The translations under genes were made by a program, and so were the position numbers. From an uncultured Desulfobacteraceae bacterium (GTDB lineage: Bacteria > Desulfobacterota > DSM-4660 > Desulfatiglandales > HGW-15): 64,000 nucleotides of DNA. The stretch covers positions 825-64,824 of the forward strand of contig CAZOLJ010000006.1 in the NCBI GenBank assembly GCA_964580575.1, given 5' to 3'. The notes beneath the pieces are model-generated. The model did not search any database. It was not told where the DNA came from and saw only the letters and a list, made by a program, of their open reading frames with translations. How positions within the stretch are numbered: the stretch's first letter is position 1; every line of letters begins with the position of its first letter. This document shows, piece by piece, positions 40,983 through 57,550 of this stretch.

Positions 40983-40996
40983 ACTCCTTCTTCAAT

Positions 40997-41100: not shown

Positions 41101-41102
41101 TC

Positions 41103-42140: not shown

Positions 42141-42152
42141 AACGCGAATCCT

Positions 42153-42254
42153 TAGGAGTATTGAATGCTGGAGTATTGGAGTCCTGGAGTGCTGGAGTAG
42201 TGGTGGAATAAAGAAAAAGAGAATATCCAGTACTCCAAGACTCCAGCAATCCAA
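42153..42254. repeat. Intercistronic hairpin element B (TGGAGYRN tandem repeats plus inverted copies)
   Basis: Left 42153-42206: TAGGAGTATTGAATGCTGGAGTATTGGAGTCCTGGAGTGCTGGAGTAGTGGTGG. Right 42227-42257: CCAGTACTCCAAGACTCCAGCAATCCAATCA. Confidence 0.6.
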
Positions 42255-43205
42255 TCATTTGACAAAGTCGTTATAGTCGTCCACTCGGTAAACATCCAGA
42301 GGCGGCCGCTGATCCATGCGGGTTCCGGCCTCCCAGCCGAAGAGCTCAAAAGCATCCTTGTTCAGCTTTTTGGTGAACGGCCTCATGGAGATCCCCACGG
42401 GGCAAACCCGTTCGCAAGCCCCGCAGTCCGTGCACCTTCCGGCACAATGGTAGGCTCGCAAAAAATGAAAGGTCATGGTGTCTACAGGGTCCGTGCTCTT
42501 CCCCACCCACTGGGGCCGCGACTCATCAACAAAGCAGGTCGGACAGTAGCAGAGAGGGCAGGCGTTCCGGCACGCGTAGCATCTGAGGCAGGATGAAATG
42601 AGCTGAGTGAAAAACTTCCGTTTTTCCTCGGGGCTCTTTCTCTCCAACACGTCAACGTCTTTGAAGGCGTTGACGCCCTCTTGTTCCGGCACCGGGTCGG
42701 CGACCATCTCGTCGTATTCCACAGGGTTCCGATGAAGGCAAGTGGAGCAATTGGTCCTCAAGAAATCTTTTTTCTTGAAGGTCTCCTGAAAACCGTTTCC
42801 GCTCACCGTGAAGGAGTCCTTGCTTTCAGTGACCTCCAAAATTTCTTTATTCCCCATCGTCCTCTTCACGGCTCGGTGGTCGATCATGCCGGTGCAGGGA
42901 ACGCCCACGATGTAAAGCTGTTCCCGCTTAATCTGGTTTTCGATGATGTGGGTCACGATGCTTCTGGAATTGCATCCATTGGCCACAATTCCGACGCGGT
43001 CGGTGCGCTTAGTCAGATAATTGCAGAGGTTCAGACCACAGTGGCTGTCCCAGTGAAGCAGGTCCACCTCCGCAGGATGCTTGATCAGCACCGGTTCATT
43101 CATCATGGGCACTGAGCCCTTCTGGTAGCCGATGAAAACGTCGACGGTTCCCTTCTCCAGGAGCTTTCGAGCGATGTCTCTGATTTTCTGAGTATACTCA
43201 AGCAT
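42255..43205 (-). CDS. FrhB/FdhB-N-terminal-like Fe-S protein (FlxC-like)
   Basis: 'CLRCYACRNACPLCYCPTCF' and 'CTDCGACERVCPVGI' with an N-terminal FrhB-like region. ATG overlaps the mvhD stop (TGATG). Confidence 0.7.
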   Translation of the reverse strand: MLEYTQKIRDIARKLLEKGTVDVFIGYQKGSVPMMNEPVLIKHPAEVDLLHWDSHCGLNLCNYLTKRTDRVGIVANGCNSRSIVTHIIENQIKREQLYIVGVPCTGMIDHRAVKRTMGNKEILEVTESKDSFTVSGNGFQETFKKKDFLRTNCSTCLHRNPVEYDEMVADPVPEQEGVNAFKDVDVLERKSPEEKRKFFTQLISSCLRCYACRNACPLCYCPTCFVDESRPQWVGKSTDPVDTMTFHFLRAYHCAGRCTDCGACERVCPVGISMRPFTKKLNKDAFELFGWEAGTRMDQRPPLDVYRVDDYNDFVK

Positions 43206-43636
43206 CAAACCACCTCAGCTCTTTTCTTAACAAGATAAGTTGCCTGACCGGTCTCCTTAACCGCCTTGATGACTTCGGTGGCAACCTCCACGAACTTCGT
43301 TGCTTCGGCAGAGGAAATCCACGAAAAGTGCAGCCTTCCCGGTTCCATCCCCACATGCTCGATCAGATTCTTGAACAGAGCGAACTTGCGTCTTGCGAAG
43401 TAATTACCTTCCAGGTAATGGCAGTCGCCCGGGTGTCACCCGGAAACCCAGACGCCGTCGGCGCCGTGCCGGAAGGCGGCGAGGATGAATTTGGGGCTCA
43501 CCCGGGCAGAGCAGGGCACCCGAATGACCCGGATATTGGATGGGTACTGGAAGCGGCTGACCCCTGCCAGGTCTGCCGCGCCATAGCTGCACCAGTTGCA
43601 CAAGAATGCAGTTATCTTAGGTTGCCAATCGTTCAT
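43205..43636 (-). CDS. mvhD: MvhD/FlxD-like protein with selenocysteine (UGA at 43436-43438 recoded)
   Basis: The track ORF ends at '...[10 protein letters not shown]'. Read-through gives '[23 protein letters not shown]...' to TGA at 43205. The Cys paralogue at 12848 has 'GVYVAGCLEGDCHF'. Hairpin AUUACCU-GGA-AGGUAAU lies 16 nt after the UGA (plus 43403-43419). Confidence 0.8.
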
Positions 43637-43654
43637 AGATAGCTCCTCAGCTCA

Positions 43655-43749
43655 AGAGTGACAAGTGACGAGTGACAAGTGACAAGTGACAAGCAACGAA
43701 GGCCAAAATCAAGATCCACAGACTCTCGTGACTTGTGACTTGTCACTCT
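43655..43749. repeat. Intercistronic hairpin element C built from 7-nt tandem repeats (GTGACRA)
   Basis: Left 43655-43694: AGAGTGACAAGTGACGAGTGACAAGTGACAAGTGACAAGC. Right 43725-43749: CTCGTGACTTGTGACTTGTCACTCT. The outer 12 bp (43655-43666 with 43738-43749) are perfectly complementary. Confidence 0.6.
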
Positions 43750-43753
43750 CTTC

Positions 43754-46700
43754 TCACATTTCATTGATCATGGCCATGATCTGCCCTTCCTCAAATCCCT
43801 TGAGGTTGAGCGCTCCCGAGCGGCAGGACGCCACGCACAGCCCACAGCCCTTGCAGAGCACCGGATTGACCTCCGCCTTTCCCGTGAAAGGGCCCTTCTG
43901 GATAAAGGAGGTCGCCGAATAAGGGCAGATCTCCACACAGACCCCGCAGCTGCTGCAGACGACAGGGGTCGCATAGGCGACCATACCGCTCACCGCGATG
44001 GTCTTTCTGGCCAGCAGGGTGACCGCTCTGGAGGCGGCCGCCTGGGCCTGGGCCACCGACTCATCAATGGGCTTCGGATAGTGGGCCATACCGCAAAGGA
44101 AGACGCCGTCCGTGGCAAACTGGGACGGACCGAGCTTGGCATGAGCCTCCACAAAAAAGCCGTCCTCGCTCAAAGGAACCTTGAAAAACTGGGCAAGCTT
44201 TTCGTCCTTGTAGGGAACAATGGCAGAGGCCAGGGCAAGCAAATCCGCCTTGATCAGGATGGGCCGTTGGAGGACGTGATCCATCACCTCGATCTCAAGG
44301 CCCTCTTTGCCGGCAGAGACTTTCGGTTTCTGTGAAATGGAGAACCGAATGAAGAGGATCCCCGCTTCTCGCGCCTCCCTGTAAAGGAGTTCCCGCTCCC
44401 CGTAGGTTCGGATATCCCGGTTGAGAATGTAAACATCCATGGCTGGGTTCAGTTCTTTGAGGTGGAGGGCGCTCTCGATGGAGTGGGTGCAGCAGACCCT
44501 CGAACAATAAGGCCTTTGGGGTTCGCGCGAACCCACGCATTGGATGAACACGGCTGTTTGAATCTTCTTGATCGACGGATCGCGATCGATGAACCTGCGG
44601 TCGAGCTCCTGGTGAGTCACCACGAGGGGGTGCTTCCCGTAAAGGTATTCCTCGGGCTTGTATTCATAGCATCCCGTGGCGAGCACGGCGATTCCATGTT
44701 CAAGGGTCCCCTGGAGGGTGCTGGACTGAAACGTGGTCTTGAAGCTTCCCACAAAACCTTCGACCTGGGTCAACTCGGCTCCGAGGTGGACCCGGATGTT
44801 TTTATCCCCTTGGACCGATTGCACAAGGCCCCCAAGATTTTTCTGGATATCTTCCCCCTGCCATGTCCTGTAAAGGTTCAGAGCCTGACCGCCCAGTACG
44901 GGAGCTTTCTCGACGATGTCCACCTCATAGCCCTGGTCGCTTAGGGTTTTTGCCGCCACCATACCGGAGATGCCGCCGCCGATCACGAGGGCCCGCTGGT
45001 TGATATCCAGCACGGCCTCTGGGAGGGATTCCATAAGAGCGACCTTGGCCACGGCCATGCGCACGAGGTCCTTGGCTTTGTCCGTCGCCTCCTGAGGATT
45101 GTCTTTGTGAACCCAGGAGTCCTGGTTGCGGATGTTGGTCATCTCGAAGAGATATTTGTTGAGGCCTGCGGTGACCAACGTCTCCTGGAACAGGGCTTCG
45201 TGGGTCTTGGGCGTGCATGCGGCCACCACGATCCGGTTGAGGGTGTTCGCCTTGATCACCTGGGCCATGGTGTCCTGAGTGTCCTGCGAGCAGGAGTAGA
45301 GGTTATCCGCCACGTACTCAACGTAGGGGAGGGTCTTCGCGTAGTCACGCACCGCCGGGACATTCACCACGCTGCCGATGTTGATGCCGCAATTGCAGAC
45401 AAACACTCCGATGCGAGGCCGCTCCCCCCGAATGTCCTTCTGCTCGGGCACTTCTTTCGCCTTGGTCAAGGTATTGCGAGCGCCGCTCAAAAGGGCTCCT
45501 GCCCGGGCAGCGGCCGAACTCGCTTCGATTACGGACTGGGGGATGTCCTTGGGCCCCTGGAAAGCGCCGCACACATAGATGCCTTCCCTGGATGTGGCCA
45601 CCGGAGCGAAGGAACTTGTCCTGCAGAACTGCGACCCTGTGAGGTCGATGCCGAGCTTGTCGGCCAATTCCATGACCTGCGGGGAGGTCTCGAGCCCCAC
45701 GGAGAGGACGACCATGTCAAAAGCCTCCTGGCGAAATTCACCGTCTTCAGTGGCATACTTGACACTGAGATCCTCGGTCAGCGGCATGGCCTCAACGGAG
45801 TGAACGCGGGACCGGATGAACCGAACCCCGTGTTTTTCCCGAGCGGCGTCGTAGTACCTTTCGAACTCCTTCCCGTGGGTCCGCATGTCCATATAGAAGA
45901 TGGCGCAATCGAGATTAGATCCTGAATGCTCCTTGGCGATCACCGCCTCTTTGATGGCATACATGCAGCAGACAGAGGAGCAGTAGGGATGGTCGCATTG
46001 GTGCATGTCCCTGGACCCGACGCACTGGAGCCAAGCGATCTTCTTGGGTTCCTTGTGATCGGACATGCGGGCGAGATGCCCCAGGGTAGGACCGGACGCT
46101 GAAAGGATCCTCTCGAACTCCATGGAAGTGACCACGTTCGGGAGCTTGGCGTAGCTGTAAGTATCGTACTTGGAGGGGTCAAAGGGTTGAAAACCTGGTG
46201 CAAGGATGATCGCTCCCACATCCAGTTCAATGATTTCATCCTTTTGAGAATGATCGATCGCCCCGACACCGCAAAATTCCGCACAGATCTTGCAGCCGCC
46301 GGTCTTGAAATGGATGCACATGCTCCTGTCTATGGCCGGCGTGTTGGGAATAGCCTGAGCGTAGGGAACGTAGATAGGCTTCCGGCCCTTGAGGCCCATA
46401 TCGTATTCGGAAGGAATGGGCTTCACCGAATGTTTGGTGATGTCTTCCAGTCTGATGTGCCCGGTCGGACAGACCGATGCACAGGCCCCGCACCCCATGC
46501 AGAATTCGGTCTGGATGTGAAACGGCGTATCGACCTTCATCTCGGTGCCGCGACCGGTCAGGCTGATGGCGGCATTTCCCATCCTCTCGCAGATCCTGGT
46601 GCAAAGTCCGCAAAGGATACAATCATCGTTCTCTTTCTTGAATCGGGGTTCTTCAAGGTCGTATTTTTTTGCCAGTTCCCTTAGAACGGGGACCTCCGGG

Positions 46701-46987
46701 CAACGGGCCAGAAGCAGCTCCACGAGCAACTTTCGACCCTTGTGAACGGCCTCCGTGTCCGTCTTGACCTCCATGCCTTCCCATATGGGGTAATTGCAGG
46801 ACGTGACAAAACGGGTCCGCCGTCCGTCGAAGACCTCCACAGTGCATAACCGGCACATTCCTGCAGGCTCCAGGGCCTTGTGGTGGCACAAAGTCGGGAT
46901 CTCGATCCCATATTTTTGTGCAATCTGGAGGATGTATTGTCCCTCTTCTCCTTGGACCGTTTTTCCGTTCATCTTGAAAGTAATCAT
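43754..46987 (-). CDS. Fusion protein: NuoG-N-terminal-like (2Fe-2S plus Fe-S) and HdrA-like flavoprotein lacking the first HdrA N-terminal module
   Basis: N-terminal 'MITFKMNGK......CHH....P.G.CR.C.VEV' (Fer2_4/NuoG type). Then HdrA body 'FERILSASGPTLGH...WLQCVGSRD...YCSSVCCMYAIKEA', a second Rossmann 'VIGGGISGM' and C-terminal 2x[4Fe-4S]. Confidence 0.85.
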   Translation of the reverse strand: MITFKMNGKTVQGEEGQYILQIAQKYGIEIPTLCHHKALEPAGMCRLCTVEVFDGRRTRFVTSCNYPIWEGMEVKTDTEAVHKGRKLLVELLLARCPEVPVLRELAKKYDLEEPRFKKENDDCILCGLCTRICERMGNAAISLTGRGTEMKVDTPFHIQTEFCMGCGACASVCPTGHIRLEDITKHSVKPIPSEYDMGLKGRKPIYVPYAQAIPNTPAIDRSMCIHFKTGGCKICAEFCGVGAIDHSQKDEIIELDVGAIILAPGFQPFDPSKYDTYSYAKLPNVVTSMEFERILSASGPTLGHLARMSDHKEPKKIAWLQCVGSRDMHQCDHPYCSSVCCMYAIKEAVIAKEHSGSNLDCAIFYMDMRTHGKEFERYYDAAREKHGVRFIRSRVHSVEAMPLTEDLSVKYATEDGEFRQEAFDMVVLSVGLETSPQVMELADKLGIDLTGSQFCRTSSFAPVATSREGIYVCGAFQGPKDIPQSVIEASSAAARAGALLSGARNTLTKAKEVPEQKDIRGERPRIGVFVCNCGINIGSVVNVPAVRDYAKTLPYVEYVADNLYSCSQDTQDTMAQVIKANTLNRIVVAACTPKTHEALFQETLVTAGLNKYLFEMTNIRNQDSWVHKDNPQEATDKAKDLVRMAVAKVALMESLPEAVLDINQRALVIGGGISGMVAAKTLSDQGYEVDIVEKAPVLGGQALNLYRTWQGEDIQKNLGGLVQSVQGDKNIRVHLGAELTQVEGFVGSFKTTFQSSTLQGTLEHGIAVLATGCYEYKPEEYLYGKHPLVVTHQELDRRFIDRDPSIKKIQTAVFIQCVGSREPQRPYCSRVCCTHSIESALHLKELNPAMDVYILNRDIRTYGERELLYREAREAGILFIRFSISQKPKVSAGKEGLEIEVMDHVLQRPILIKADLLALASAIVPYKDEKLAQFFKVPLSEDGFFVEAHAKLGPSQFATDGVFLCGMAHYPKPIDESVAQAQAAASRAVTLLARKTIAVSGMVAYATPVVCSSCGVCVEICPYSATSFIQKGPFTGKAEVNPVLCKGCGLCVASCRSGALNLKGFEEGQIMAMINEM

Positions 46988-47009
46988 CGGTCAAATCCTT
47001 TTTTCCGCA

Positions 47010-48911
47010 CTATCCCACGACAATGGCATCGAACTTACAGGCGTCGTAGCAGATCCCGCACTTGACGCACTTTCCTTGGTCCAGTTGATGAACCTTTTTC
47101 TTGTCCCCCGCGATGGCTTCCTGGGGACACTTGAGAGCACACACGTGACACCCTGTGCAGGCCTGCTCGTCCACCTCATAGTGAAAGAGGGGTTTGCAGA
47201 CCCCAGCAAAGCATTTTTTGTCCTTAATGTGGGCCTCGTACTCATCACGAAAGTAGAGAATGGTGGTGAGAACCGGATTGGGAGCCGAGGTGCCCAGCCC
47301 GCAGAGGGAAAACTTCTGGATCATGCTCCCCAACTCTTCGAGCAGCTCGATGTCGCCTTCTTTACCCCTGCCCTCACAGATGCCCGTGAGCACATCGAGC
47401 ATTTGCTTGATTCCCTCCCGACAAGGGGTGCACTGGCCGCAGGATTCGCCGTTGAGAAAGTCAAGAAAGTAACGGGCCAGATCCACCATGCAAGTGTCCT
47501 GATCCATGACGATCATGCCGCCGGAGCCCATCATGGAACCTACCTTGGTCAGTTCATCAAAATCGACTTGAAGATCCAGGAACGCCTCCGGGATACAGCC
47601 CCCAGAAGGCCCTCCGGTCTGAACAGCCTTGAATTTTCGCTTTTTGGGAATCCCCCCTCCCATGTCGAAAATGATCTCCCGCAGAGGAGTGCCCATCGGC
47701 ACTTCAACCAGGCCGGTATTCTTCACTTTTCCAACGAGGCTGAACACCTTGGTGCCTTTGCTGTATTTCGTTCCCATGCCGGCGTACCATTCGGCCCCTT
47801 TGAGCATGATGACGGGAACGTTTGCGTAGGTTTCGACGTTGTTGAGATTGGAGGGACCGTCCCTGAATCCCTTTTCCACCGTGTGAACATACTTGGCCCT
47901 CGGTCTCCCAACCTTCCCCTGCAGCGAGGCCATGAGGGCTGTGGATTCTCCGCAAACGAATGCGCCAGCCCCGGTGGAGATCTTGATGCTGAAGCTGAAC
48001 CCGGAACCTGCGATGTTGTCCCCGAGCAACCCGAGATCCTCCGCTTGCCGGATGGCGTTGACGAGACGCTTCACCGCCAGTGGATACTCATTGCGCACAT
48101 AGATGTAGCCCTGAGCCGATCCAATGGCGTAGGCCGCTATCAGCATTCCTTCCAGGACGCTGTGGGGATCTCCCTCCAGCACACTCCTGTCCATATAAGC
48201 CCCTGGGTCGCCCTCATCGGCATTACAGATGACATACCGCTCTCCGCGGTGTTTGCGACAGCTCTCCCATTTTATTCCCGTAGGAAATCCGCCGCCGCCC
48301 CGACCCCTCAGACCGGACTTCTTGATGCTTGTGATGATATCCTCAGGTTTCATTTCAGCGAGGACACGGGTGAAAGCGAAATAGCCTCCTCTCCCAATAT
48401 ATTCCTGGACGCTCTGAGGATCGATGTAGCCGCAATTGCGCAAGGCGACCTTGACTTGCCGAGAATAAAACGGGATTTCTTCCAAGAAGGGGATCGCTTT
48501 GAGGGGTTTCACCTTTTCGAGGGGGTTCCGGATGTCTTCCTCAAGGACGGATCGGGGGTCTCGCATCTGGCCAAGGATCAACTTCTTGCTGAACTTCTCT
48601 TCCGTGTAGTCTTGAACAACATCCAAGACCCTATCCTCGGTCACCCGTTTGTACACGACCCTCGGTCGCCCCTTTGCCACTATCTCCACCAGAGGCTCTT
48701 CTTCGCAAAAGCCGAGACAACCGGTTTGCCGAACTTGAAAAGAGTGAGCTTCAGGATACTCTTTCAGCGCTTTTTCGAAGGTCGCTTTGGCTCCGGCAGC
48801 GATCCCGCAGGACGCCATTCCCACATTGAGCATCATGGTCTCTGGGTAGTAGAGTTTCTGACTATACTCTGAAGTGATCTTTTCCAGATCTTTCACCGAG
48901 TGGATTTTCAT
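47010..48911 (-). CDS. NuoF/HydB-like NADH-binding FMN Fe-S flavoprotein
   Basis: 'GRGGGGFPTG.KW' (FMN), 'CNADEGDPGA', 'ESCGQCTPCREG' and C-terminal 2x[4Fe-4S] ferredoxin motifs; 633 aa. Confidence 0.9.
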   Translation of the reverse strand: MKIHSVKDLEKITSEYSQKLYYPETMMLNVGMASCGIAAGAKATFEKALKEYPEAHSFQVRQTGCLGFCEEEPLVEIVAKGRPRVVYKRVTEDRVLDVVQDYTEEKFSKKLILGQMRDPRSVLEEDIRNPLEKVKPLKAIPFLEEIPFYSRQVKVALRNCGYIDPQSVQEYIGRGGYFAFTRVLAEMKPEDIITSIKKSGLRGRGGGGFPTGIKWESCRKHRGERYVICNADEGDPGAYMDRSVLEGDPHSVLEGMLIAAYAIGSAQGYIYVRNEYPLAVKRLVNAIRQAEDLGLLGDNIAGSGFSFSIKISTGAGAFVCGESTALMASLQGKVGRPRAKYVHTVEKGFRDGPSNLNNVETYANVPVIMLKGAEWYAGMGTKYSKGTKVFSLVGKVKNTGLVEVPMGTPLREIIFDMGGGIPKKRKFKAVQTGGPSGGCIPEAFLDLQVDFDELTKVGSMMGSGGMIVMDQDTCMVDLARYFLDFLNGESCGQCTPCREGIKQMLDVLTGICEGRGKEGDIELLEELGSMIQKFSLCGLGTSAPNPVLTTILYFRDEYEAHIKDKKCFAGVCKPLFHYEVDEQACTGCHVCALKCPQEAIAGDKKKVHQLDQGKCVKCGICYDACKFDAIVVG

Positions 48912-48932
48912 GTTTCAGCCTCTTGTTGGATC

Positions 48933-49430
48933 CTATTCGTATCCGCCCAGGATTTTCGTGGCTTCATCAGGGGACAGCCGGGCGTGAACAGCCTCATTAA
49001 TTTTGACTACAGGTCCGAGACTGCAGCAGCCGATGCAGCGCACGGATTCAAGGGTGAAGCGTCCGTCTCCCGTGGTCTGCCCATCATGGATATGCAACTG
49101 TTCTTGTATCTGCTCATGAACCCGCTTGGCCCCTCTGACATGGCACGCTGTCCCCAGGCAAACCGTAATCAGATTGCGTCCGCGCGGCTCCAGGCTGAAG
49201 GTAGCGTAGAACGTCGCAATTCCATAGATCTGACTCAGGGGAACACCGACTTTTTCCGCAAGATAGGTGAGGCTTGGTCTAGGGAGGTAATTGTAGCGCC
49301 TCTGTATGGCCTGAAGCATCATGATCAGATTTTCTTTGTCATTGCCAAATTGGGATTCGATCAAATTGTCCAGTTCAAAGTAATCCAATTCATCGGCAGA
49401 AGCAGTCTGCACCGGACGCACCTCATTCAT
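48933..49430 (-). CDS. NuoE/HoxE-like 2Fe-2S thioredoxin-fold subunit
   Basis: 'VCLGTACHVRGA' and 'CIGCCSLGPV'; 165 aa. Confidence 0.9.
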   Translation of the reverse strand: MNEVRPVQTASADELDYFELDNLIESQFGNDKENLIMMLQAIQRRYNYLPRPSLTYLAEKVGVPLSQIYGIATFYATFSLEPRGRNLITVCLGTACHVRGAKRVHEQIQEQLHIHDGQTTGDGRFTLESVRCIGCCSLGPVVKINEAVHARLSPDEATKILGGYE

Positions 49431-49454: not shown

Positions 49455-49868
49455 CTACGCCCTGGTTGTCTGATCCGTACGGGGAACACCAACCGCTTGA
49501 TTGACGACAGGGCAGTTTTCAACGCACACGCCGCAGCCTGTGCACAGATCCATGTTGATGCTCCGGGCCCGTTTTCTTATTTTCACTTTGAAATCTCCAG
49601 GGCTTCCTTCTACGGACTCAAGATCAGAGTAAGTGATGAGCTCGATATTAAGATGCCGGCCGACCTCGACCAGTTTGGGGGAGATGATTCACATGGCGCA
49701 GTCGTTGGTGGGAAAGGTCTTGTCCAATTGAGCCATGGCCCCGCCGATGGCAGGGGATTTCTCAAGAAGGTAGACATAATACCCGGAATCCGCCAAATCA
49801 AGGGCGGACTGCATCCCTGCGATACCCCCGCCCACAACCAGAACCGATCCTTTCACGCTGCTGGACAT
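49455..49868 (-). CDS. Stand-alone HdrA N-terminal module with selenocysteine (UGA at 49689-49691 recoded)
   Basis: '[47 protein letters not shown]...' continues to '[12 protein letters not shown]' and TAG at 49455. It aligns to residues ~10-120 of the HdrA at 9804 ('FPTNNCDLCTLSP'). Hairpin CUGGUCG-AGGU-CGGCCGG lies 15 nt after the UGA (plus 49656-49673). Confidence 0.75.
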
Positions 49869-50168
49869 ATCCTTATTCTCCTTGGATTCCAAACAATAAT
49901 CAGAGTTCCGAGCCTTTCCGGTGTGAAGAACACAATTCGCCTCCCCGACCTGAGCCATCACGACATGTGAATTTCAGGCCTACCAAAACCCTGGACACCC
50001 TAGAGTGATGCCGGATCAATACTCATGAGTGACAAAAGGCCAGGCTTAATGAGGAAGACATTTAAAGTGTATAGGAACCAGATACACTATGAGATGAACA
50101 TAGCCATGACCGAGGGAATCTGTCAATGGTTTTTTGTTCTCACTATGGGGAAAAAAGGCATGGAACCC

Positions 50169-50198
50169 CCCCCGGCTTCTGCTTCAGGAAGCCGGGGG
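50169..50198 (-). terminator. Stem-loop after the dual-receiver gene (possible terminator)
   Basis: CCCCCGGCTTC-N8-GAAGCCGGGGG, an 11-bp perfect stem just after the stop. The T-run on the transcribed strand is about 12 nt away, so this is not a textbook intrinsic terminator. Confidence 0.4.
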
Positions 50199-50209: not shown

Positions 50210-51886
50210 CTAGGCCGCCAAGCGAATGGCGTTCTCGGTCACCTTTCTGATCTCATCGGGAGTAAAGGGCTTTGGTAGATAGTCGACCGCCCCCAGCCGG
50301 GCGCTTTCCTTGGCTGTTTCGATACTGGCATAGCCGGTGATGATGATGACGAGCGTCTCCGGGCTTTTCTCACGGATGGCATGAAGGAGTTCCAGTCCCT
50401 GCACACCGGGGATTTTGAGATCGAGCAGGATGAGTTTGTAGGCCTTCTCCTCGATTTTCTGCAGTGCTTCTTCTTTGGTCATCGCCTGATCGACGGAGAA
50501 TCCTTTCTTTGACAAGATCTTGCGGATATTGTTGTTCACCGCCGCTTCGTCATCAATCACCAGAACGTCTTGCTCGTTTGCTTTCCTGGGCAATTCATGG
50601 ACCACGGCCTTGCGGGGGGCTTCTTTCTTCAGGAGGCCGGAAACCCTTTGCTTCAACTCCTCGTAGGGCATGAGAGAGACCCCCTCATGTTCGAGGTATT
50701 TCACGAAATCCGGTCCGGTCAGCGCAACCACCTCTTCGTGGCTGAAGGGCATGTCCGGGCCCACCCATTTCCTCACATCCGGAACTTCTCCTTTTGTCCC
50801 CGCCGTCTTCTTCCCTTTCATTTGGGGGCACAGGTTGCTCTTGAGGCCTGCCTTGCAGGTGTTCCCGATCTTTTTGTAGATGTCACAGATTTTCACGCCG
50901 ACTTTGCAATAGTGCTCCAGAGTCTCAGGAGACGGGGCACTAAGGGACGGCATGTCCGAAGGGCCGAGGGTGTCTGCATAGGATTCGCCTGCTTGCATCG
51001 CCACTTCGTCTCTTGCAAAAGGAATATCCACGTCAATGACCTGTTTCCTTTTAGCCATCACGGCCGTCATCTTCTTCTTGAGTTCTTCATAGGGCACAAA
51101 GGCAATGCCGTCGCTCTGAAGATTCATGAGGTACTCAGGTCCGGTGATTGAAGCGATCTCCTCGTAGCTGAAAGGCTGATCAATGCCGACAAGCTTCTTG
51201 GGGTCTAAAGCCTTTTCACTCTTCCCTTCTTTTTTCGCCTTCGTCCCTTTTTTGGCCTGTGGGCACGCCTCGGTCTTGAGACCTGCTTTGCAGGTGTTCC
51301 CAAGCTTCTTGAAAATGTCGCACACCTTTTGCCCTACCTTGCAATAGTACTCCAGGGTCTCGATCGATGGCATCTCCACAACAGGCATATCCGAGGGGCC
51401 CAGCGTATCCGCGTATCCTTCCCCCGCGACCTTTGCCACTTCTTGCCTGTCAAAGGGGATGTCGAGATCAATGACTTTGATCGCCTTTCTCTCCTTTTCA
51501 GAGACCGGCGCCTCGCGCAATTCCCCTGAAAGAGCCTTTTCCACCGTATCCCTTACTTCTTTCGGGGTGAAAGGCTTGGGAATGTAATCCAGAGCACCGA
51601 GCCGGATAGCTTTCATGGCGGTATCGGTAGAGGCATAAGCCGTCATAATGATCACTTTGGTGAGGGGCCACTGCTCTTTCACGAGCTTCAAGAGCTCCAG
51701 CCCGTTCTTTTCAGGCATCACAATGTCGGAGATCAGCAGGGAATAAGAATCCTTGGCCATCTTCTCAAGGGCCTCCTGGGCGCTCAAGGCCTGAGTCACT
51801 TCATAATTCTTTTTTGCCAGGATTTTGTGCACATTCTCACAGATTCCTTTTTCATCGTCCACGACCAGAATCTTCTTTGTCTCCAT
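50210..51886 (-). CDS. Dual-receiver response regulator with a duplicated central four-Cys domain (REC - X - X - REC)
   Basis: N- and C-terminal CheY-like receivers ('ILVVDDE...SDIVMP', 'VLVIDDE...LLDLKIP'). Between them are two ~135-aa repeats, each with 'IDxDIPF...YADTLGPSDMP...ETLE.YCKVG.K.CDI.KK.GNTCKAGLK...CPQ' (C-x6-C-x9-C-x8-C). Confidence 0.8.
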   Translation of the reverse strand: METKKILVVDDEKGICENVHKILAKKNYEVTQALSAQEALEKMAKDSYSLLISDIVMPEKNGLELLKLVKEQWPLTKVIIMTAYASTDTAMKAIRLGALDYIPKPFTPKEVRDTVEKALSGELREAPVSEKERKAIKVIDLDIPFDRQEVAKVAGEGYADTLGPSDMPVVEMPSIETLEYYCKVGQKVCDIFKKLGNTCKAGLKTEACPQAKKGTKAKKEGKSEKALDPKKLVGIDQPFSYEEIASITGPEYLMNLQSDGIAFVPYEELKKKMTAVMAKRKQVIDVDIPFARDEVAMQAGESYADTLGPSDMPSLSAPSPETLEHYCKVGVKICDIYKKIGNTCKAGLKSNLCPQMKGKKTAGTKGEVPDVRKWVGPDMPFSHEEVVALTGPDFVKYLEHEGVSLMPYEELKQRVSGLLKKEAPRKAVVHELPRKANEQDVLVIDDEAAVNNNIRKILSKKGFSVDQAMTKEEALQKIEEKAYKLILLDLKIPGVQGLELLHAIREKSPETLVIIITGYASIETAKESARLGAVDYLPKPFTPDEIRKVTENAIRLAA

Positions 51887-51955: not shown

Positions 51956-51971
51956 AGCATATGTCGTGCCA
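51956..51971 (-). promoter_or_regulatory. Candidate sigma-54 promoter upstream of the dual-receiver gene
   Basis: Minus strand reads TGGCAC-GACAT-ATGCT (perfect -24, one mismatch at -12), about 70 nt upstream of the ATG at 51886 and directly downstream of an NtrC-family gene. Confidence 0.55.
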
Positions 51972-52297
51972 GGTCTTTGTGCTGCATATAACCAATTGAT
52001 AATAGGCCACTTTGTTTAATAATCCCTTTTGAGAACCTTGTCGGTGTATAGAATAAATATTCAGGCTGAAAAGGTAGAGTGCGAAAGGTACGAATGGTTT
52101 GTCATCTTTCGAGTGAGCAGGGAGAAGCGTTCTTCCATAAACATTCCAAGAAATTGGCTTGACTCCGTAGGAACATAAGCGTGGAGGGGAAAGACTGGAA
52201 AACCAAAATGAGAATCTCTAAAATGATGTATATGTTCGCTATACAGGGTATGATTTCTTCAAAAGGATCCTGCTCTGAGAAAAACTCTCGTGCTCTT

Positions 52298-53716
52298 CTA
52301 TCTGGATGAGGCTGGCCGAGTTGGAAGGGAAATACCGTGCTTCTTCATCAGATTTTGGAAATTCGGCCGCTGCAGTCCCACTTTTTTTGCAGCCCGGGTG
52401 ACATTCCAGTCGTTTTGCATCAGGGCCTGGATAATGAAGTTCCTCTCTACCTCTCTCACGGCATTTTCTCTTATCTCTTTTTTGACTCTTTTGAGAGCTT
52501 CGTTGTTTTCCGGTACTTGGACAACCAGCCCTCCAAGATCGTCCAAGGCAGGTAGTTCCCTGGGGGTGATTTCTTTCCCTTCACAGAGAATCACTGCGCG
52601 CTCAATGACATTCTTGAGCTGCCGCACATTGCCGGGCCAATCGTAAGTCGTCAGTCTGACCGAAGCCTCCTTGGTAAGACCGCTGATGTGCTTGCCGGTC
52701 AGGTCGCTGAACTGCCTCAGAAAGTGATAAGAGATCGGGAGAATGTCGCTTTTCCGGTCCCTGAGGGGTGGAGTAAAAATAGGATACACGAAAATGCGGT
52801 AGTAGAAGTCCTGCCGGAAGGACCCTTCTTTGACCATCTCCATGAGATCTCTGTTGGTCGCCAGGATGAGGCGCACGTCCACTTTTTGGGTCGATGTGGT
52901 GCCTAGGGCAAGGTATTCCCGGGTTTCCAGAAAGCGGAGGAGCATAGCCTGGACCTCCGGACTGATGTTGCTGATTTCGTCCAGAAAGACGGTGCCCCCG
53001 TCCGCCGAATGAAAGATGCCTTCCTTATTCTTGTAAGCCCCCGTGAAGGCGCCTTTGGCATAGCCGAACAGCTCGCTTTCCAGAAGGTTCCCGGACAAGG
53101 TGCCGCAATCAACGGCAAAGAAAACCTTTTCGCTTCGACGGCTGTTCGCATGGATGGCCCGGGCGATCAATTCTTTGCCCGTGCCGCTCTCCCCACAAAT
53201 GAGAACGGTTGAATCCGTGGGAGCCACTTTGGCGATCATCTTGATGACCGCCTGATTCTTCGGGCTTTCCCCGATGAGCCGGTGGGAGATAGTCCTTGAT
53301 TCCCCCTCCTGCAGACTCATTTGCCGATTCTGTGCGCGGATCTCCCAGTCCGAAAGGGCGCGTCGAACAATAGCCCGTAATTCCTCGGGCGTAAACGGTT
53401 TGGGAAGGTAGTCATAGGCCCCTGTTCTCATGACCTCCACGGCGGACGAGACCGTGGCATAGCCGGTAATCACGATCACCATGGAGTCGGGATAGGATTC
53501 TTTTACGCGCCTCAGAACCTCCAGCCCCCCCATGCTGCTCATTTTCAGATCCGTGATGATGACCTCAAAGGGTTTCTGTTCCATCCTCTTCAGCGCATCG
53601 TATCCGTTGAGCACGTAATCGACTTGAAGGCCCTCCTTGGAGAGTATCTTGACACAGCTCTGGCAAATCCCCAGCTCATCATCCACCACAAGGACTCGTC
53701 TGCTCTGATCAGGCAT
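52298..53716 (-). CDS. NtrC-family sigma-54-dependent response regulator (REC + AAA+ + HTH)
   Basis: 'VLVVDDE...ITDLKM', 'GESGTGKE', 'ESELFGYAKGAFTGA', 'GGTVFLDEI' and a C-terminal Fis-type HTH. ATG overlaps the upstream kinase stop (ATGCCTGA). Confidence 0.9.
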   Translation of the reverse strand: MPDQSRRVLVVDDELGICQSCVKILSKEGLQVDYVLNGYDALKRMEQKPFEVIITDLKMSSMGGLEVLRRVKESYPDSMVIVITGYATVSSAVEVMRTGAYDYLPKPFTPEELRAIVRRALSDWEIRAQNRQMSLQEGESRTISHRLIGESPKNQAVIKMIAKVAPTDSTVLICGESGTGKELIARAIHANSRRSEKVFFAVDCGTLSGNLLESELFGYAKGAFTGAYKNKEGIFHSADGGTVFLDEISNISPEVQAMLLRFLETREYLALGTTSTQKVDVRLILATNRDLMEMVKEGSFRQDFYYRIFVYPIFTPPLRDRKSDILPISYHFLRQFSDLTGKHISGLTKEASVRLTTYDWPGNVRQLKNVIERAVILCEGKEITPRELPALDDLGGLVVQVPENNEALKRVKKEIRENAVREVERNFIIQALMQNDWNVTRAAKKVGLQRPNFQNLMKKHGISLPTRPASSR

Positions 53717-55157
53717 TCTGCTCTCCTCTGGGGATGGGGAGATGAATCCTGAACGTCGTTCCTTCACCTACCTTGCTCTCCACGTCTATGGAACCGTCAT
53801 GTTGCTCAATGATTCCGTGCGTAATGGCAAGACCAAGGCCTGTCCCGGTCTCCTTGGATGTGAAGAAGGGATCGAAGATCCTGTCCAAAGCCCGCTCCGG
53901 TATGCCGCCGCCCGTGTCGCTGACCGTGATTTCTACCACCTGTTTTTCGGGAACCAGACGGCTGGCAAAGCGAATCTTTCCTCCAGGATCGGTCGCGTCG
54001 ATGCCGTTGATGGCGAGATTGATGAGGCATTGCTGGATCTGATCCTTGTCGATGTCCACCAAAGGCAGTGGCTCAGAGAGAACGGCCTCAAAAGCGACGT
54101 CCTTGAAAGCGGCTTGCTTTCTGGTGAGGGCCATGGAGTCACGAACAACCTGGTTGATGTCATGACGCGCCTTTGCCGGTTTGCTCTGACGCGCAAAATC
54201 GAGGAGGCTGGTCACGATTTTGCGACACCGCAGAGTCTCATTGGCAATCGTCTCAAGCTCGCGATAGTTGGGATCTTCAATGTCCATTTCCTCCTGAATC
54301 AGCAGGGCCGTGGTGAGAATAGTGGTCAGAGGGTTATTGATCTCATGGGCCACGCCTGCGGCCAATTGGCCCACGGAGGCGAGTTTCTGCTGCTCCACGA
54401 GTTTCTTTTGAAGGAGAATGTCCCTGGTAATGTCCTTTGAAATCTCTATGACACCCTGCACCGCATGGTCGCTGAAGATAGGATAACAGGAAATCGAATA
54501 GTAGCGTGGGTTGTCTTCTTTGTCCCGATGGACGTGAGTGGCTTGTGAGGCTCTGCCGGTGCCGAGGCATTCTATGAGAGGGCAGGGGTGTTCTTTCCCA
54601 TCGCAGGGTTTATTCCGGTCGTGGGAAAGCTCGTAACAGTGCATGCCCAAGGCGGAAGCCCTGTTTAGCCCCATCTTCTTGAGCAATGTGTCATTGATGT
54701 CGAGAATGCCGTAGTCCCTTCCGATGAGCATCACGTCTTCGTGAAAAAAAGCATTGATGACCGCCTCGTACAGAGTCGTCATTCTCGCAAGCTCCTGTCG
54801 GGTCCTGTCCAGGACTCTGTCCCCGGCAACAAGCTCGCCCAAGAGTTCCGCCGCTCCATCGTCAAGAAAAATAACCTGTTTCCCTTTTTCTTGAAGCACC
54901 GTCTTGGATACACCCGTATCGTCGGTCAGGCTGACCACCAGGTCAATGTCCTTTCGCTGGAGTACCTTGTGCAGATCCCGCGTCACGGATACGCTCCGGT
55001 CCCCTGCATGGGTCACGGCCGATGCCTCTTCTCCCGAGTCTACGATCGCGACGATGGCGGGATCAAGTGTCTCGAAAACGCGTTTTTGAAAGCGATCCAG
55101 AAAATCCATGCATTTCTGCCCGCTACCAATCACGACAATCTTCAGCTTCTTCCTCAC
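53709..55157 (-). CDS. Sensor histidine kinase (N-terminal Rossmann-like or unknown domain + PAS + HisKA/HATPase)
   Basis: H-box 'GVAHEINNPL', 'DTGGGI' and 'GTGLGL'. PAS with 'CYEL..(x10)C(x6)CP'. Confidence 0.85.
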   Translation of the reverse strand: MRKKLKIVVIGSGQKCMDFLDRFQKRVFETLDPAIVAIVDSGEEASAVTHAGDRSVSVTRDLHKVLQRKDIDLVVSLTDDTGVSKTVLQEKGKQVIFLDDGAAELLGELVAGDRVLDRTRQELARMTTLYEAVINAFFHEDVMLIGRDYGILDINDTLLKKMGLNRASALGMHCYELSHDRNKPCDGKEHPCPLIECLGTGRASQATHVHRDKEDNPRYYSISCYPIFSDHAVQGVIEISKDITRDILLQKKLVEQQKLASVGQLAAGVAHEINNPLTTILTTALLIQEEMDIEDPNYRELETIANETLRCRKIVTSLLDFARQSKPAKARHDINQVVRDSMALTRKQAAFKDVAFEAVLSEPLPLVDIDKDQIQQCLINLAINGIDATDPGGKIRFASRLVPEKQVVEITVSDTGGGIPERALDRIFDPFFTSKETGTGLGLAITHGIIEQHDGSIDVESKVGEGTTFRIHLPIPRGEQNA

Positions 55158-55364: not shown

Positions 55365-56441
55365 TCATCCGGAGATCTGCGAGGTGAACGGCAAAATGAT
55401 TCTGAAAGTGCTTCCTTTGCCGGGGCTGCTGAGGACCTCGATTCTGCCGTCGTGCTCCTTCACGATTTCATGAACTACCATCAGTCCGAGGCCGGTGCCG
55501 TCCGTTCCCTTTGTGGAGAAGAAGTGGGTGAAGATTTTCTCAGAGGTGGCGTGGTCCATCCCAATCCCGTCATCCTCCACCTCGATGACGAAATGACGGC
55601 GGTCATAGAAATCGGCTTTCACAGCGATGGCGTGAGAGTCTTTTCCTTTATCCCTGCGGCACGCTTCCATGGCATTGGAAAGAAGATTGATCAACATCCG
55701 GCGCATGGCGCCGGGATCCATATGAACCACAGGAAGACGAGGGTTCGTGTTCGCTCTCAGTTTGCACTCGATCGACTGAGCTTTTTCGTAAAAGAATGCG
55801 ATGGACTCCATGAGCATTTTATCAAGGGCAATCGCCTCATAGACAGGCTTCCTTTTCTTGGTGGAATACAGGATATTCTGGACCAGGCCGGAAATCTCCT
55901 GGATGTTTTTTTTGACCACAGACCATCCTTTTTTCATCAGTTCCTGATCTTGGTCCTTCAGCGCTTCATCCACCACATAGGCGCCTCCTTGGAGACCCTC
56001 CAAAATGTTCTTGATATCATGGGAAAGGATCGCCACAGACTGACCGAGGAGAGTGAGTCCCTTCTGGGTCTCTTTCACCTTGCTGATGTTGGACGACAGC
56101 TCCAGAACCGCAACGACATTGCCCAGGGCATCCGTAATGGGGGAAGAGTAAATCACCACGTGGACGGGGCCGCTGCCCCCCAGTTGCACGACCTCTTCGC
56201 TGACGTGGGCCTTCTTGTCCTGAAAGGTCTCCCAGACAGGGCAGGAAGAGCATCGGGCGGAACTCCTTAAATAGACTTCATGGCACTTCTTGCCGATCGC
56301 ATCGCCGAAGTCATTTCGGAAGGTCTGGTTGGTTTGCAGGATGGTGAAAGATCGGTCTTGAATGGAGACATAGCAAGGAAGCAGATCGACAATCGCCTTG
56401 TACCCAAGGTCAATGAGGGTGGGATGAGTTTTTTCTTCCAT
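55365..56441 (-). CDS. PAS sensor histidine kinase
   Basis: 'LSHDIKN' H-box, 'DDGIGM' and 'GTGLGL'. PAS with 'CHEVY..(x10)C(x2)CP'. Confidence 0.85.
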   Translation of the reverse strand: MEEKTHPTLIDLGYKAIVDLLPCYVSIQDRSFTILQTNQTFRNDFGDAIGKKCHEVYLRSSARCSSCPVWETFQDKKAHVSEEVVQLGGSGPVHVVIYSSPITDALGNVVAVLELSSNISKVKETQKGLTLLGQSVAILSHDIKNILEGLQGGAYVVDEALKDQDQELMKKGWSVVKKNIQEISGLVQNILYSTKKRKPVYEAIALDKMLMESIAFFYEKAQSIECKLRANTNPRLPVVHMDPGAMRRMLINLLSNAMEACRRDKGKDSHAIAVKADFYDRRHFVIEVEDDGIGMDHATSEKIFTHFFSTKGTDGTGLGLMVVHEIVKEHDGRIEVLSSPGKGSTFRIILPFTSQISG

Positions 56442-56881: not shown

Positions 56882-57022
56882 CTGCGTTTCCCTCCATGAA
56901 ATCATGTTGCTTCGCTCGATGATTTCATCATGCGCGACTACGTCGCTTGTTAATTTGGATAAACGCCTGTGCCTTTGTGAAGCGGCGCAGCCGCGTTTCA
57001 TGAAATCGCGTGAGCGATTTTA

Positions 57023-57526: not shown

Positions 57527-57550
57527 CCCCTCTCAAAAGAAATGATGTTT

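What the first reader, a model, noticed from the sequence alone, without database searches (positions are those of the whole stretch)
50636..51481. Duplicated ~135-aa four-cysteine domain sandwiched between two receiver domains
The 50210-51886 product is REC - X - X - REC. The two X repeats (DNA about 51062-51481 and 50636-51043) share 'IDxDIPFxRxEVAxxAGExYADTLGPSDMP...ETLExYCKVGxKxCDIxKKxGNTCKAGLKxxxCPQ...PFSxEExxxxTGPxxxxxLxxxGxxxxPYEELK'. The Cys spacing is invariant: C-x6-C-x9-C-x8-C. I do not recognise this domain. Four Cys per repeat suggests an Fe-S or Zn site. A protein with two phosphoacceptor domains and two putative redox or metal sites lies immediately upstream of the Hdr/Flx operon and downstream of a sigma-54 promoter. 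It could integrate phosphorelay and redox signals, or act as a phosphorylation-gated adaptor.
Basis: partly seen in the sequence, partly recalled or inferred. Interest (0 to 1): 0.65.

Follow-up and report, generated by a model that had tools for sequence, protein, structure and literature searches.

The report
Uncatalogued four-cysteine module in dual-receiver regulator
A two-receiver signalling protein of sulfate-reducing bacteria carries two copies of an undescribed module with four invariant cysteines, is switched on by a neighbouring sigma-54 two-component system, and usually sits next to heterodisulfide-reductase (Hdr) energy-metabolism genes, so it is probably a metal- or redox-sensitive second-tier regulator of those genes or enzymes.

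Summary
ORF 50210-51886(-) encodes REC-X-X-REC. X1 and X2 are 56% identical (E 9e-59), and each has C-x6-C-x9-C-x8-C.

X matches nothing in Pfam, NCBIfam or the PDB, by sequence or fold. It has three parts: an acidic ~45-aa module A, a basic Cys4 knot with a Lys-rich tail, and a second copy of the module, A' (A vs A' profile probability 98%). The four Cys are invariant, or nearly so, in 151 X copies. A distant clade keeps them with different spacing (C-x6-C-x8/9-C-x3/4-C).

The family is narrow: 72 clusters at 50% identity among 1.84 billion proteins, and 184 loci in species-representative genomes, mostly Desulfobacterales.

The gene context is conserved:
- A PAS histidine kinase and an NtrC-type activator lie upstream.
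- Two TGTAT-N9-ATACA enhancer sites and a sigma-54 promoter precede the gene.
- An hdrA(Sec)-nuoEF-hdrL-flx operon with its own sigma-70-type promoter follows in 47 of 70 loci.

A' also opens a family of GcvH-like proteins that are likewise sigma-54-driven and Hdr-linked.

My best reading is a sigma-54-induced, phosphorylation-gated adaptor or regulator that binds a metal, probably Fe-S. Cofactor, partner and output are all untested. It is a new variant of a known kind.

The parts
50210..51886 (-). Gene for the 558-aa REC-X1-X2-REC protein (stop codon 50210-50212)
51512..51886 (-). REC1 (aa 1-125). D10, D11, D54, T82 and K104 are intact. Helix alpha-1 resembles that of the neighbouring NtrC-type activator.
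51347..51481 (-). X1 module A (aa 136-180): IDxDIPFxxxEVAxxAGxxYxxxLGPSDMP, acidic
51257..51346 (-). X1 Cys4 knot (aa 181-210): C182-x6-C189-x9-C199-x8-C208-P-Q, basic
51206..51256 (-). X1 Lys-rich linker (aa 211-227)
51062..51205 (-). X1 module A' (aa 228-275): GIDQPFSYEEIASITGPEY...PYEELK. It is an internal repeat of A and also occurs in GcvH-like proteins.
50636..51043 (-). X2 (aa 282-417), the second A-Cys4-K-A' unit, with C327/334/344/353
50213..50578 (-). REC2 (aa 437-558). D445, D446, D489, T517 and K539 are intact. Helix alpha-1 has the family-typical motif 'VNNNIRKIL'.
51956..51971 (-). Sigma-54 promoter (-24/-12) TGGCACGACATATGCT, 70 nt upstream of the ATG
52227..52245 (.). Palindrome TGTAT-N9-ATACA, the distal presumed enhancer site for the NtrC-type activator
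52045..52063 (.). Palindrome TGTAT-N9-ATtCA (1 mismatch), the proximal presumed enhancer site
52298..53767 (-). NtrC-type sigma-54 activator (REC, AAA+ sigma-54 interaction domain, HTH_8)
53709..55157 (-). PAS histidine kinase HK1 with a Cys-rich PAS domain. The gene overlaps the activator gene.
55365..56441 (-). Second PAS histidine kinase, HK2
50169..50198 (-). GC-rich hairpin just after the stop codon, followed by U6. It may be a partial terminator.
50097..50126 (-). Sigma-70-type promoter of the hdrA operon (TTGACA-18-TATGTT). The -35 box is conserved in 50 of 51 intergenic regions compared.
50068..50086 (.). Third TGTAT-N9-ATACA palindrome, just downstream of the hdrA -10 box. It is present only in the window's clade and a few other loci.
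49455..49868 (-). HdrA-like N-terminal fragment with an in-frame TGA (selenocysteine) at 49689-49691. It is the first gene of the linked operon.
40131..49430 (-). Rest of the linked operon: NuoE-like, NuoF-like, a 1077-aa HdrL-like fusion, two Fe-S proteins, and a FlxA-like FAD/NAD protein

Best explanation
The gene encodes a second-tier response regulator of a conserved regulatory cassette.

**Proposed mechanism**
1. A PAS histidine kinase phosphorylates the adjacent NtrC-type activator.
2. The activator binds two TGTAT-N9-ATACA sites and fires a sigma-54 promoter. The conserved product of that promoter is this REC-X(-X)-REC protein.
3. The protein's own activity is then set by phosphorylation of its two intact receivers. 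REC1 resembles the activator's receiver, so it may share the same kinase. REC2 has a distinct, conserved helix alpha-1, so it may answer to a different kinase.
4. Activity also depends on the state of a Cys4 site in each X unit. This site is most likely a metal centre, and I favour an Fe-S cluster over Zn.
5. X has no catalytic or DNA-binding signature. It consists of acidic ~45-aa helical modules (A and A') flanking a basic Cys4/Lys-rich knot. The modules vary in copy number, and A' moves between protein families.
6. I therefore read X as a protein-interaction output. The protein would be a phosphorylation- and redox-gated adaptor acting on a partner within this cassette: either the kinase/activator pair (feedback) or the Hdr-NuoEF-Flx electron-bifurcating complex or its genes.

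**Shown:** architecture, residue conservation, promoter and enhancer sites, synteny, module sharing.

**Inferred:** cofactor, phosphorylation, partner, and direction of the effect.
For: **Architecture and repeat.**

**Conserved cysteines.** C47, C54 and C64 are invariant and C73 is present in 99% of 151 X copies. G50, K58, K59, T63, K65, G67, K69 and P74 are conserved at 95-100%, and all twelve are invariant in the 50-sequence alignment A1. The distant clade keeps the four Cys as C-x6-C-x8/9-C-x3/4-C, usually followed by Pro.

**Internal repeat.** A and A' match at hhalign probability 98%, E 6e-14, and each HMM detects the other module.

**Charge.** Mean net charge is A -7.1, A' -4.5, Cys4 +2.2, linker +5.4.

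**Receivers.** All phospho-acceptor residues of both receivers are conserved in the family. REC1, REC2 and the NtrC-type receiver are 44-48% identical to one another.

**Transcriptional control.**
- A sigma-54 promoter is present in 58 of 78 loci in the close family, and in 27 of 46 in the distant clade.
- The palindrome occurs at 2.36 per kb in the two intergenic regions against 0.031 per kb elsewhere. There are usually two copies upstream of this gene.
- The activator gene lies directly upstream in 64 of 71 loci.

**Link to Hdr.**
- hdrA lies directly downstream in 47 of 70 loci, and hdr/nuo genes lie elsewhere in the locus in 3 more.
- In the one distant-clade locus annotated (L132), HdrCBA, an [FeFe]-hydrogenase-like gene and NuoEF follow the gene.

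**The A' module elsewhere.**
- It also heads GcvH-like proteins (HMM E down to 6e-29).
- Those genes have sigma-54 promoters.
- They have paralogous PAS-kinase/activator pairs: 30% and 40% identity over the full length, with the same Cys-rich PAS.
- They sit beside Hdr genes.

**Variable copy number.** Two X in 55 genes and one in 26. P0124 has one Cys4 knot and three A'. P0086 is an X1/X2 chimera.

**Structure prediction.** AlphaFold puts C1 and C2 on one helix, at i and i+7. That spacing suits a cluster better than a Zn site, although confidence in this region is low.

**Precedent.** OrpR is an Fe-S-sensing sigma-54 regulator in a sulfate reducer (PMC8359166).
Against: - There is no experimental or structural evidence for any cofactor. 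AlphaFold confidence in X is low: pLDDT 63.7 for X alone, below 50 for the Cys loop, and 45-78 in the full-length model. A helix-based argument for Fe-S over Zn is therefore weak.
- No partner has been identified.
- Twenty of 70 loci have no Hdr genes nearby.
- One distant homologue, P0175, lacks the Cys motif altogether.
- The basic Cys4/Lys-rich segment could bind nucleic acid instead of protein.
- The sigma-54 promoter might simply drive the hdr operon by read-through. The protein would then be a co-transcribed accessory rather than the output.
Confidence: 0.4

Rival explanations
1. DNA-binding transcription factor. The basic Cys4 knot plus the Lys-rich tail binds DNA at the conserved sigma-70-type hdrA promoter. 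The protein is then the direct repressor or activator of the hdr-nuo-flx operon, giving a two-step cascade from the NtrC-type activator to this protein to hdr.
For: - The hdrA operon has its own highly conserved promoter, tATTGACAAGCC...TATAg, with a further conserved TTTGGTT/TTTTGT block just downstream of the -10. It has no sigma-54 promoter.
- A near-consensus -35 box suggests control by a repressor.
- The Cys4 knot and linker are strongly basic, +2.2 and +5.4.
- The first Cys spacing, C-x6-C, equals that of the DNA-contacting Fe-S cluster loop of EndoIII/MutY (my own knowledge, not tested).
Against: - No helix-turn-helix or other DNA-binding model matches.
- A and A' are strongly acidic.
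- A' also occurs in GcvH-like proteins, where a DNA-binding role would be odd.
- Twenty of 70 loci lack an adjacent hdr promoter.
- The only conserved palindrome in the locus fits the HTH_8 activator, with two copies upstream of a sigma-54 promoter.
Confidence: 0.2
2. Feedback modulator of its own two-component system. It would act either as a phosphate sink competing with the NtrC-type activator for the kinase, or as an anti-activator that forms receiver heterodimers with the activator or otherwise binds it. This is the PspA/PspF or NifL/NifA logic. The Cys4 site would add a redox input.
For: - The gene is the conserved direct target of the activator and lies next to the activator gene in 64 of 71 loci, a tighter link than the one to Hdr.
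- REC1 and REC2 are 44-46% identical to the activator's receiver, and REC1 shares its alpha-1 'GIC..x..KIL'.
- The other A'-bearing family is also sigma-54-driven, by a paralogous kinase/activator pair.
Against: - In the regions examined, the two-component system would have no output other than its own modulator.
- A sink does not need a conserved 140-aa Cys4 module, nor two of them.
- No interaction has been tested.
Confidence: 0.25
3. The four Cys form a purely structural Zn site or disulfides, and X is an inert spacer or dimerisation element between two CheY-like receivers. There would be no redox or metal sensing.
For: - Cys4 sites are often structural Zn sites.
- AlphaFold does not define a cluster pocket.
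- One homologue, P0175, lacks the Cys.
Against: - Conservation extends well beyond the Cys: G50, K58, K59, T63, K65, G67, K69 and P74 are invariant in alignment A1, and the A/A' motifs are also conserved.
- There are no CxxC pairs of the kind typical of Zn knuckles.
- The hosts are strict anaerobes rich in Fe-S proteins.
- The distant clade ends the motif in C-x3-C-P, as ferredoxin motifs do.
Confidence: 0.15

Closest known systems
FrzZ-type dual CheY-like response regulators (Myxococcus xanthus)
   Same: Both have two phosphorylatable receiver domains in one polypeptide, no enzymatic or helix-turn-helix output domain, and a presumed output through protein-protein contacts. This comparison rests on my own knowledge.
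   Different: - FrzZ has only a short linker between its receivers and belongs to a chemosensory (Che-like) pathway.
- Here one or two 140-aa Cys4 modules separate the receivers.
- The receivers here are NtrC-like.
- The gene is sigma-54-driven and linked to Hdr genes.
OrpR, an Fe-S-sensing sigma-54 activator of Desulfovibrio vulgaris (PMC8359166)
   Same: Both involve a sulfate reducer, a sigma-54 circuit and conserved Cys proposed or shown to hold a redox-sensitive cluster.
   Different: [quoted passage not shown]
- Here the Cys4 site lies in a non-PAS module of a separate protein that has no AAA+ or DNA-binding domain.
Anti-activators encoded under their own activator's sigma-54 promoter (PspA/PspF, NifL/NifA, HrpV/HrpS)
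   Same: The circuit layout is the same: the gene next to the activator gene is that activator's direct sigma-54 target.
   Different: - There is no sequence or domain similarity.
- Those proteins have no receivers.
- An interaction with the activator has not been tested here.
A'-Cys-rich-GcvH-like proteins of Desulfobacterales (P0174, P0205, P0235)
   Same: - They share the Lys-rich tail and the A' module (HMM E down to 6e-29).
- They have sigma-54 promoters.
- They have paralogous PAS-kinase/activator pairs.
- They have Hdr neighbours.
   Different: - They have no receivers.
- Their Cys-rich segment is different (C-x12-C-x5-C-x2-C-P).
- They have a C-terminal GCV_H domain.
- They are themselves uncharacterised.
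Classical Fe-S sensor motifs (FNR, NreB, WhiB, SoxR, and the EndoIII/MutY cluster loop)
   Same: All have four Cys within about 30 residues. The C-x6-C spacing equals the first spacing of the EndoIII/MutY loop (my own knowledge).
   Different: - The remaining spacings differ.
- There is no Pfam or PDB hit to any of these families.

Membership tests
Response regulator receiver superfamily (PF00072) | Receiver fold with the acidic pocket (DD, D), the conserved T/S and the conserved K | tested here: met
   There are two Pfam Response_reg stretches, whole-protein E 1.7e-59. D10/D11/D54/T82/K104 and D445/D446/D489/T517/K539 are present and conserved across the 70-sequence alignment. AlphaFold pLDDT is about 90 for both domains.
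NtrC-family sigma-54 enhancer-binding proteins | Central AAA+ sigma-54 interaction domain (PF00158) and a C-terminal HTH_8 domain | tested here: not met
   Only the receiver parts match. NCBIfam ntrC scores 165.6 bits against a cut-off of 558.6, and the hit covers residues 6-131. There is no PF00158 or PF02954 hit. Source names such as 'sigma-54-dependent Fis family regulator, partial' are misnomers.
Ferredoxin-type 4Fe-4S domains (Fer4 clan) | CxxCxxCxxxCP motif and a Fer4-family profile match | tested here: not met
   None of the 50 X copies hits a Fer4 model, even at E<=10. The spacing is C-x6-C-x9-C-x8-C-P. Only the terminal C-P, and C-x3-C-P in the distant clade, is reminiscent of ferredoxins.
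Zinc ribbons and zinc knuckles | Paired CxxC/CxxH knuckles and a matching profile | tested here: not met
   There are no CxxC pairs. Only isolated, non-significant zinc-finger hits appear: zf-CCCH_7 in 1 of 50 X copies at E 0.095, and zf-CCCH in P0139 at E 0.18.
Any catalogued domain covering X | A significant sequence or fold match for residues 136-417 | tested here: not met
   - Pfam and NCBIfam: nothing.
- PDB by phmmer or hmmsearch: 0 hits, or one at E 0.39.
- Foldseek against the PDB: no match at E <= 10.

The query model was of low confidence, so the two fold results are weak negatives.
Fe-S (or other metal) sensor proteins | A bound cluster or metal whose state changes the protein's activity | not testable with these tools
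   The only evidence available is the conservation of four Cys and their neighbouring residues.
FrzZ-like dual-CheY chemosensory outputs | Two receivers joined by a short linker, encoded in a che/frz operon | tested here: not met
   The 311 residues between the two receivers (aa 126-436) hold two structured repeats. The neighbours are PAS kinases and a sigma-54 activator, not che genes.

The most novel reading that the evidence does not exclude
X is a new redox-sensing Fe-S module. Its A/A' units are docking peptides for Hdr/HdrL-NuoEF electron-bifurcating complexes. The protein would then be a phosphorylation- and redox-gated regulatory subunit that switches such an enzyme on or off after translation.

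The same docking unit would tether GcvH-like carrier proteins to Hdr. In related loci an HdrA/HdrL-like protein even carries its own receiver domain, which shows that phospho-signalling can be wired directly onto these enzymes.
Probability: 0.12. Interest if true: 0.85.

Novelty: new variant of a known kind. Interest (0 to 1): 0.55.

Why it matters
Hdr/NuoEF/Flx-type flavin-based electron-bifurcating complexes are central to the energy metabolism of the sulfate reducers that dominate carbon mineralisation in marine sediment. I found almost nothing on how they are regulated.

This locus defines a conserved and testable regulatory cassette:
- a Cys-rich PAS kinase;
- an NtrC-type activator;
- a defined enhancer palindrome;
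- a sigma-54 promoter;
- a dual-receiver protein with an uncatalogued Cys4 module.

The cassette is found in at least 184 species-level genomes. A parallel cassette drives GcvH-like proteins that share one of the modules.

If the Cys4 site is a redox-active cluster, this would be a new type of response-regulator sensor/output domain. It would also be a direct handle on how these bacteria match their electron-bifurcating machinery to redox state. Even on the conservative reading, two new sequence modules (A/A' and the Cys4 knot) deserve family definitions.

Tried and rejected
1. **Known domain for X.** Searches of Pfam, NCBIfam and the PDB by sequence, with both single sequences and profiles, found nothing.
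3. **Selenocysteine or genuine truncation in 'short' homologues on long contigs.** Rejected. In the two loci examined the neighbouring genes are split as well, which points to frameshifted assemblies.
4. **A sigma-54 promoter in front of hdrA.** None in 50 loci.
5. **A/A' as a winged helix-turn-helix (excisionase/MerR-like).** I considered this from the pattern 'EEVAxxTGxxYxxxL..G'. I rejected it as unsupported because no HTH model hits and the modules carry a net charge of -4.5 to -7.
6. **Rfam.** No RNA family anywhere in the window.
7. **Plasmid origin.** No match.
8. **Further architectures containing A'.** A profile search returned only truncated GcvH-like genes.
9. **Context of distant homologues P0142 and P0137.** The contigs were too short. 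I resolved this with a two-motif DNA pattern scan of metagenomes instead.
10. **Literature.** Five full-text searches found no description of this protein family.
Full report
**1. The observation**

ORF 50210-51886 on the minus strand encodes a 558-aa protein. Pfam finds two receiver domains (whole-protein E 1.7e-59; the better-scoring stretch is aa 441-549) and nothing between them. NCBIfam hits are all receiver-only and lie far below family cut-offs.

The two central repeats are X1 (51062-51481, aa 136-275) and X2 (50636-51043, aa 282-417). They are 56% identical over 139 residues, E 9e-59.

The protein has nine Cys in total: C16 plus two sets with spacing C-x6-C-x9-C-x8-C (C182/189/199/208 and C327/334/344/353).

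**2. Anatomy of X**

I extracted 149 X copies from 120 homologues and aligned them with the window's two copies.
- C47, C54 and C64 are invariant, and C73 is present in 99% of the 151 copies.
- G50, K58, K59, T63, K65, G67, K69 and P74 are conserved at 95-100%. All twelve residues are invariant in the 50-sequence alignment A1.

X is composite, with three parts:
- An N-terminal module A: IDxDxPFxxxEVxxxTGxxYxxxLgxSDmP.
- A Cys4 knot (C-x2-G-x3-C-D-I-F-K-K-L-G-x-T-C-K-x-G-x-K-x3-C-P-Q) followed by a Lys-rich tail.
- A C-terminal module A': GIDQPFxYEEVxxxTGPEYxxxL..G....PYEELK.

A and A' are an internal repeat. The profile-profile probability is 98%, E 6e-14, and each HMM detects the other module in the window protein.

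A and A' are acidic, with mean net charge -7.1 and -4.5. The knot and tail are basic, at +2.2 and +5.4.

AlphaFold models both receivers confidently but X only weakly: pLDDT 63.7 for X alone, and 45-78 in the full-length model. It predicts short helix pairs in A and A', and a helix carrying C1 and C2.

No Pfam or NCBIfam model matches X, and no PDB sequence or fold does.

**3. Family and distribution**

An exhaustive profile search of 1.84 billion cluster representatives found only 72 clusters. A scan of one genome per species found 184 loci. The 80 listed are mostly Desulfobacterales, plus some Desulfatiglandales. Named taxa include Desulfosarcina, Desulfonema limicola, Desulfatirhabdium, Desulfococcus, Desulfatibacillum and Desulfobacterium sp. 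N47.

Copy number varies.
- Complete genes carry two X units in 55 loci and one in 26.
- Close relatives of the window protein include single-X forms orthologous to X1.
- One of them, P0086, is an X1/X2 chimera, which is the signature of recombination between the repeats.

A distant clade of about 390-410 aa has the order REC-A-Cys4-A-REC, with Cys spacing C-x6-C-x8/9-C-x3/4-C, usually followed by Pro. P0124 has one knot and three A' modules. P0175 has two A modules and no Cys.

Homologues that look truncated on long contigs sit in loci where the neighbouring genes are split too, which points to frameshifted assemblies.

**4. Regulatory context**

The window carries a sigma-54 -24/-12 element at 51956-51971, 70 nt upstream of the ATG. 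It is the only match in 64 kb. An equivalent element sits 60-150 nt upstream of the gene in 58 of 78 related loci and in 27 of 46 loci of the distant clade.

A palindrome, TGTAT-N9-ATACA, occurs three times in the window, and all three copies are in this locus. The chance expectation is 0.37. Across 82 loci its density is 2.36 per kb in the two flanking intergenic regions, against 0.031 per kb elsewhere. There are typically two copies upstream of the sigma-54 promoter. This is the classic layout of enhancer sites for an NtrC-type activator.

The gene for that activator (52298-53767; REC, AAA+, HTH_8) lies directly upstream in 64 of 71 loci. It overlaps a PAS kinase gene (53709-55157). Further kinases and receivers lie upstream.

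REC1, REC2 and the activator's receiver are 44-48% identical to one another. All phospho-acceptor residues of both receivers are conserved.

**5. Link to Hdr**

Downstream, after a GC-rich hairpin and a U6 tract, lies an operon. It starts with an HdrA-like fragment containing an in-frame TGA. NuoE-like and NuoF-like genes follow, then a 1077-aa HdrL-like fusion and Flx-like Fe-S and FAD/NAD subunits.

This operon follows the gene directly in 47 of 70 loci. It lies elsewhere in the locus in 3, and is absent from 20.

The operon has its own conserved sigma-70-type promoter: TTGACA is present in 50 of 51 intergenic regions compared. It has no sigma-54 promoter (0 of 50).

In the window's clade, a third copy of the palindrome overlaps the start of this promoter. 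The activator may therefore touch both promoters there.

In the one distant-clade locus I annotated (L132), Rrf2, HdrC, HdrB, HdrA, an [FeFe]-hydrogenase-like protein and NuoEF follow the gene. Partial hits in other loci of that clade are consistent with this. The association with Hdr/NuoEF gene clusters is therefore old, though not obligatory.

**6. A second family with the A' module**

Proteins of about 360 aa begin with a Lys-rich tail and an A' module that matches the A' HMM at E down to 6e-29. A different Cys-rich segment and a GcvH domain follow.

- Their genes also carry canonical sigma-54 promoters, with a different palindrome, GGCTACA-N7-TGTAGCC.
- In three loci they follow a kinase/activator pair. 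Two of these pairs were compared with the window's and are paralogous: 30% and 40% identity over the full length, with the same Cys-rich PAS motif.
- They sit among HdrABC/HdrL/FlpD/Flx-like genes.

A' is therefore a mobile unit, used twice in the same kind of circuit.

**7. Interpretation**

*Firm conclusions*
- This is a phosphorylatable dual-receiver protein.
- Its synthesis is the conserved output of an adjacent sigma-54 two-component system.
- Its middle part is an uncatalogued, strongly conserved Cys4-containing module.

*Most likely reading (confidence about 0.4)*
- X is a metal-binding protein-interaction output, and I favour Fe-S.
- The protein is then a phosphorylation- and redox-gated adaptor acting within the cassette.
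- Its target would be either the kinase/activator pair or the Hdr-NuoEF-Flx genes or enzyme.

*Arguments for Fe-S over Zn, all indirect*
- There are no CxxC pairs.
- C1 and C2 sit at i and i+7 on a predicted helix.
- The motif ends in C-P (C-x3-C-P in the distant clade).
- The hosts are strict anaerobes.
- OrpR provides a precedent (PMC8359166).

*Rivals*
- A DNA-binding regulator of the conserved hdrA promoter, acting through the basic knot and tail (0.2).
- A phosphate sink or anti-activator feeding back on the activator (0.25). This overlaps with the best explanation.
- A purely structural Zn or disulfide spacer (0.15).

**8. Novelty**

The kind is known: a response regulator in a sigma-54 cascade. 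The central module, its A/A' repeat, the sharing of A' with GcvH-like proteins, and the conserved enhancer/promoter cassette are, as far as five full-text searches show, undescribed. Source databases name these proteins only generically.

I rate it a new variant of a known kind, with moderate interest (0.55). It would rate much higher if the module proves to be a redox-active cluster that gates an electron-bifurcating enzyme.

Noticed in passing
window 49455-49868 (-), TGA at 49689-49691: The first gene of the downstream operon is a 137-codon HdrA-like N-terminal fragment. It has an in-frame TGA at the position '...TNDCAM*IISPK', presumably selenocysteine. Gene callers split the same gene at this point in related loci, giving 59-aa products.
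   Followed up: partly
window 53709-55157 (-) and 55365-56441 (-); L086 5137-6699: The PAS domains of the neighbouring kinases are Cys-rich. HK1 has HCYELSHDRNKPCDGKEHPCPLIEC, and HK2 has KCHEVYLRSSARCSSCP. The HK1 motif recurs in the paralogous kinase that controls the A'-GcvH genes (YCYEISHGYRVPCSSSRPDMKCPLVE). This may be an Fe-S or metal-sensing PAS domain like that of OrpR.
   Followed up: partly
L083 8001-8936; L086 9001-10083; L087 9001-10095: This is a family of ~360-aa proteins with the order Lys-rich tail, A' module, Cys-rich segment, GcvH domain. They are driven by canonical sigma-54 promoters with GGCTACA-N7-TGTAGCC palindromes upstream. They are embedded in HdrABC/HdrL/FlpD/Flx-like clusters and are uncharacterised.
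   Followed up: partly
L086 14073-17522 (-); L083 15419-16690 (-): An HdrA/HdrL-like flavo-Fe-S protein carries a Response_reg (receiver) domain. Here phospho-signalling is wired directly onto an Hdr-type enzyme.
   Followed up: no
window 50097-50126 (-) and the equivalent regions of 50 related loci: The sigma-70-type promoter in front of hdrA is very strongly conserved: tATTGACAAGCC, then about 16 nt, then TATAg. A further conserved TTTGGTT/TTTTGT block lies just downstream of the -10 box. It may be an operator or a leader element.
   Followed up: partly
window 56489-60180 (-): A further signalling cluster lies upstream: a PAS-PAS histidine kinase, a receiver-kinase hybrid, a universal stress protein and a solo receiver. 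That makes four kinases and at least six receiver domains within 10 kb.
   Followed up: no
L132 1838-10861: In the distant clade the dual-receiver gene is followed by Rrf2, a HycI-like protease, HdrC, HdrB, HdrA, DRTGG, an [FeFe]-hydrogenase-like protein, PHP, HATPase, NuoE and NuoF. This looks like an Hdr-linked bifurcating-hydrogenase cluster.
   Followed up: partly
L001 and L002 (long metagenome contigs): In both loci the dual-receiver gene and several neighbouring genes are called in pieces. In L001, for example, the product ends after X2 and a separate REC2 ORF overlaps it. This looks like assembly frameshifts rather than real truncations.
   Followed up: yes
window 36306-38228 (+): A FeoB ferrous-iron transporter gene lies a few kb beyond the Flx-like end of the operon.
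   Followed up: no
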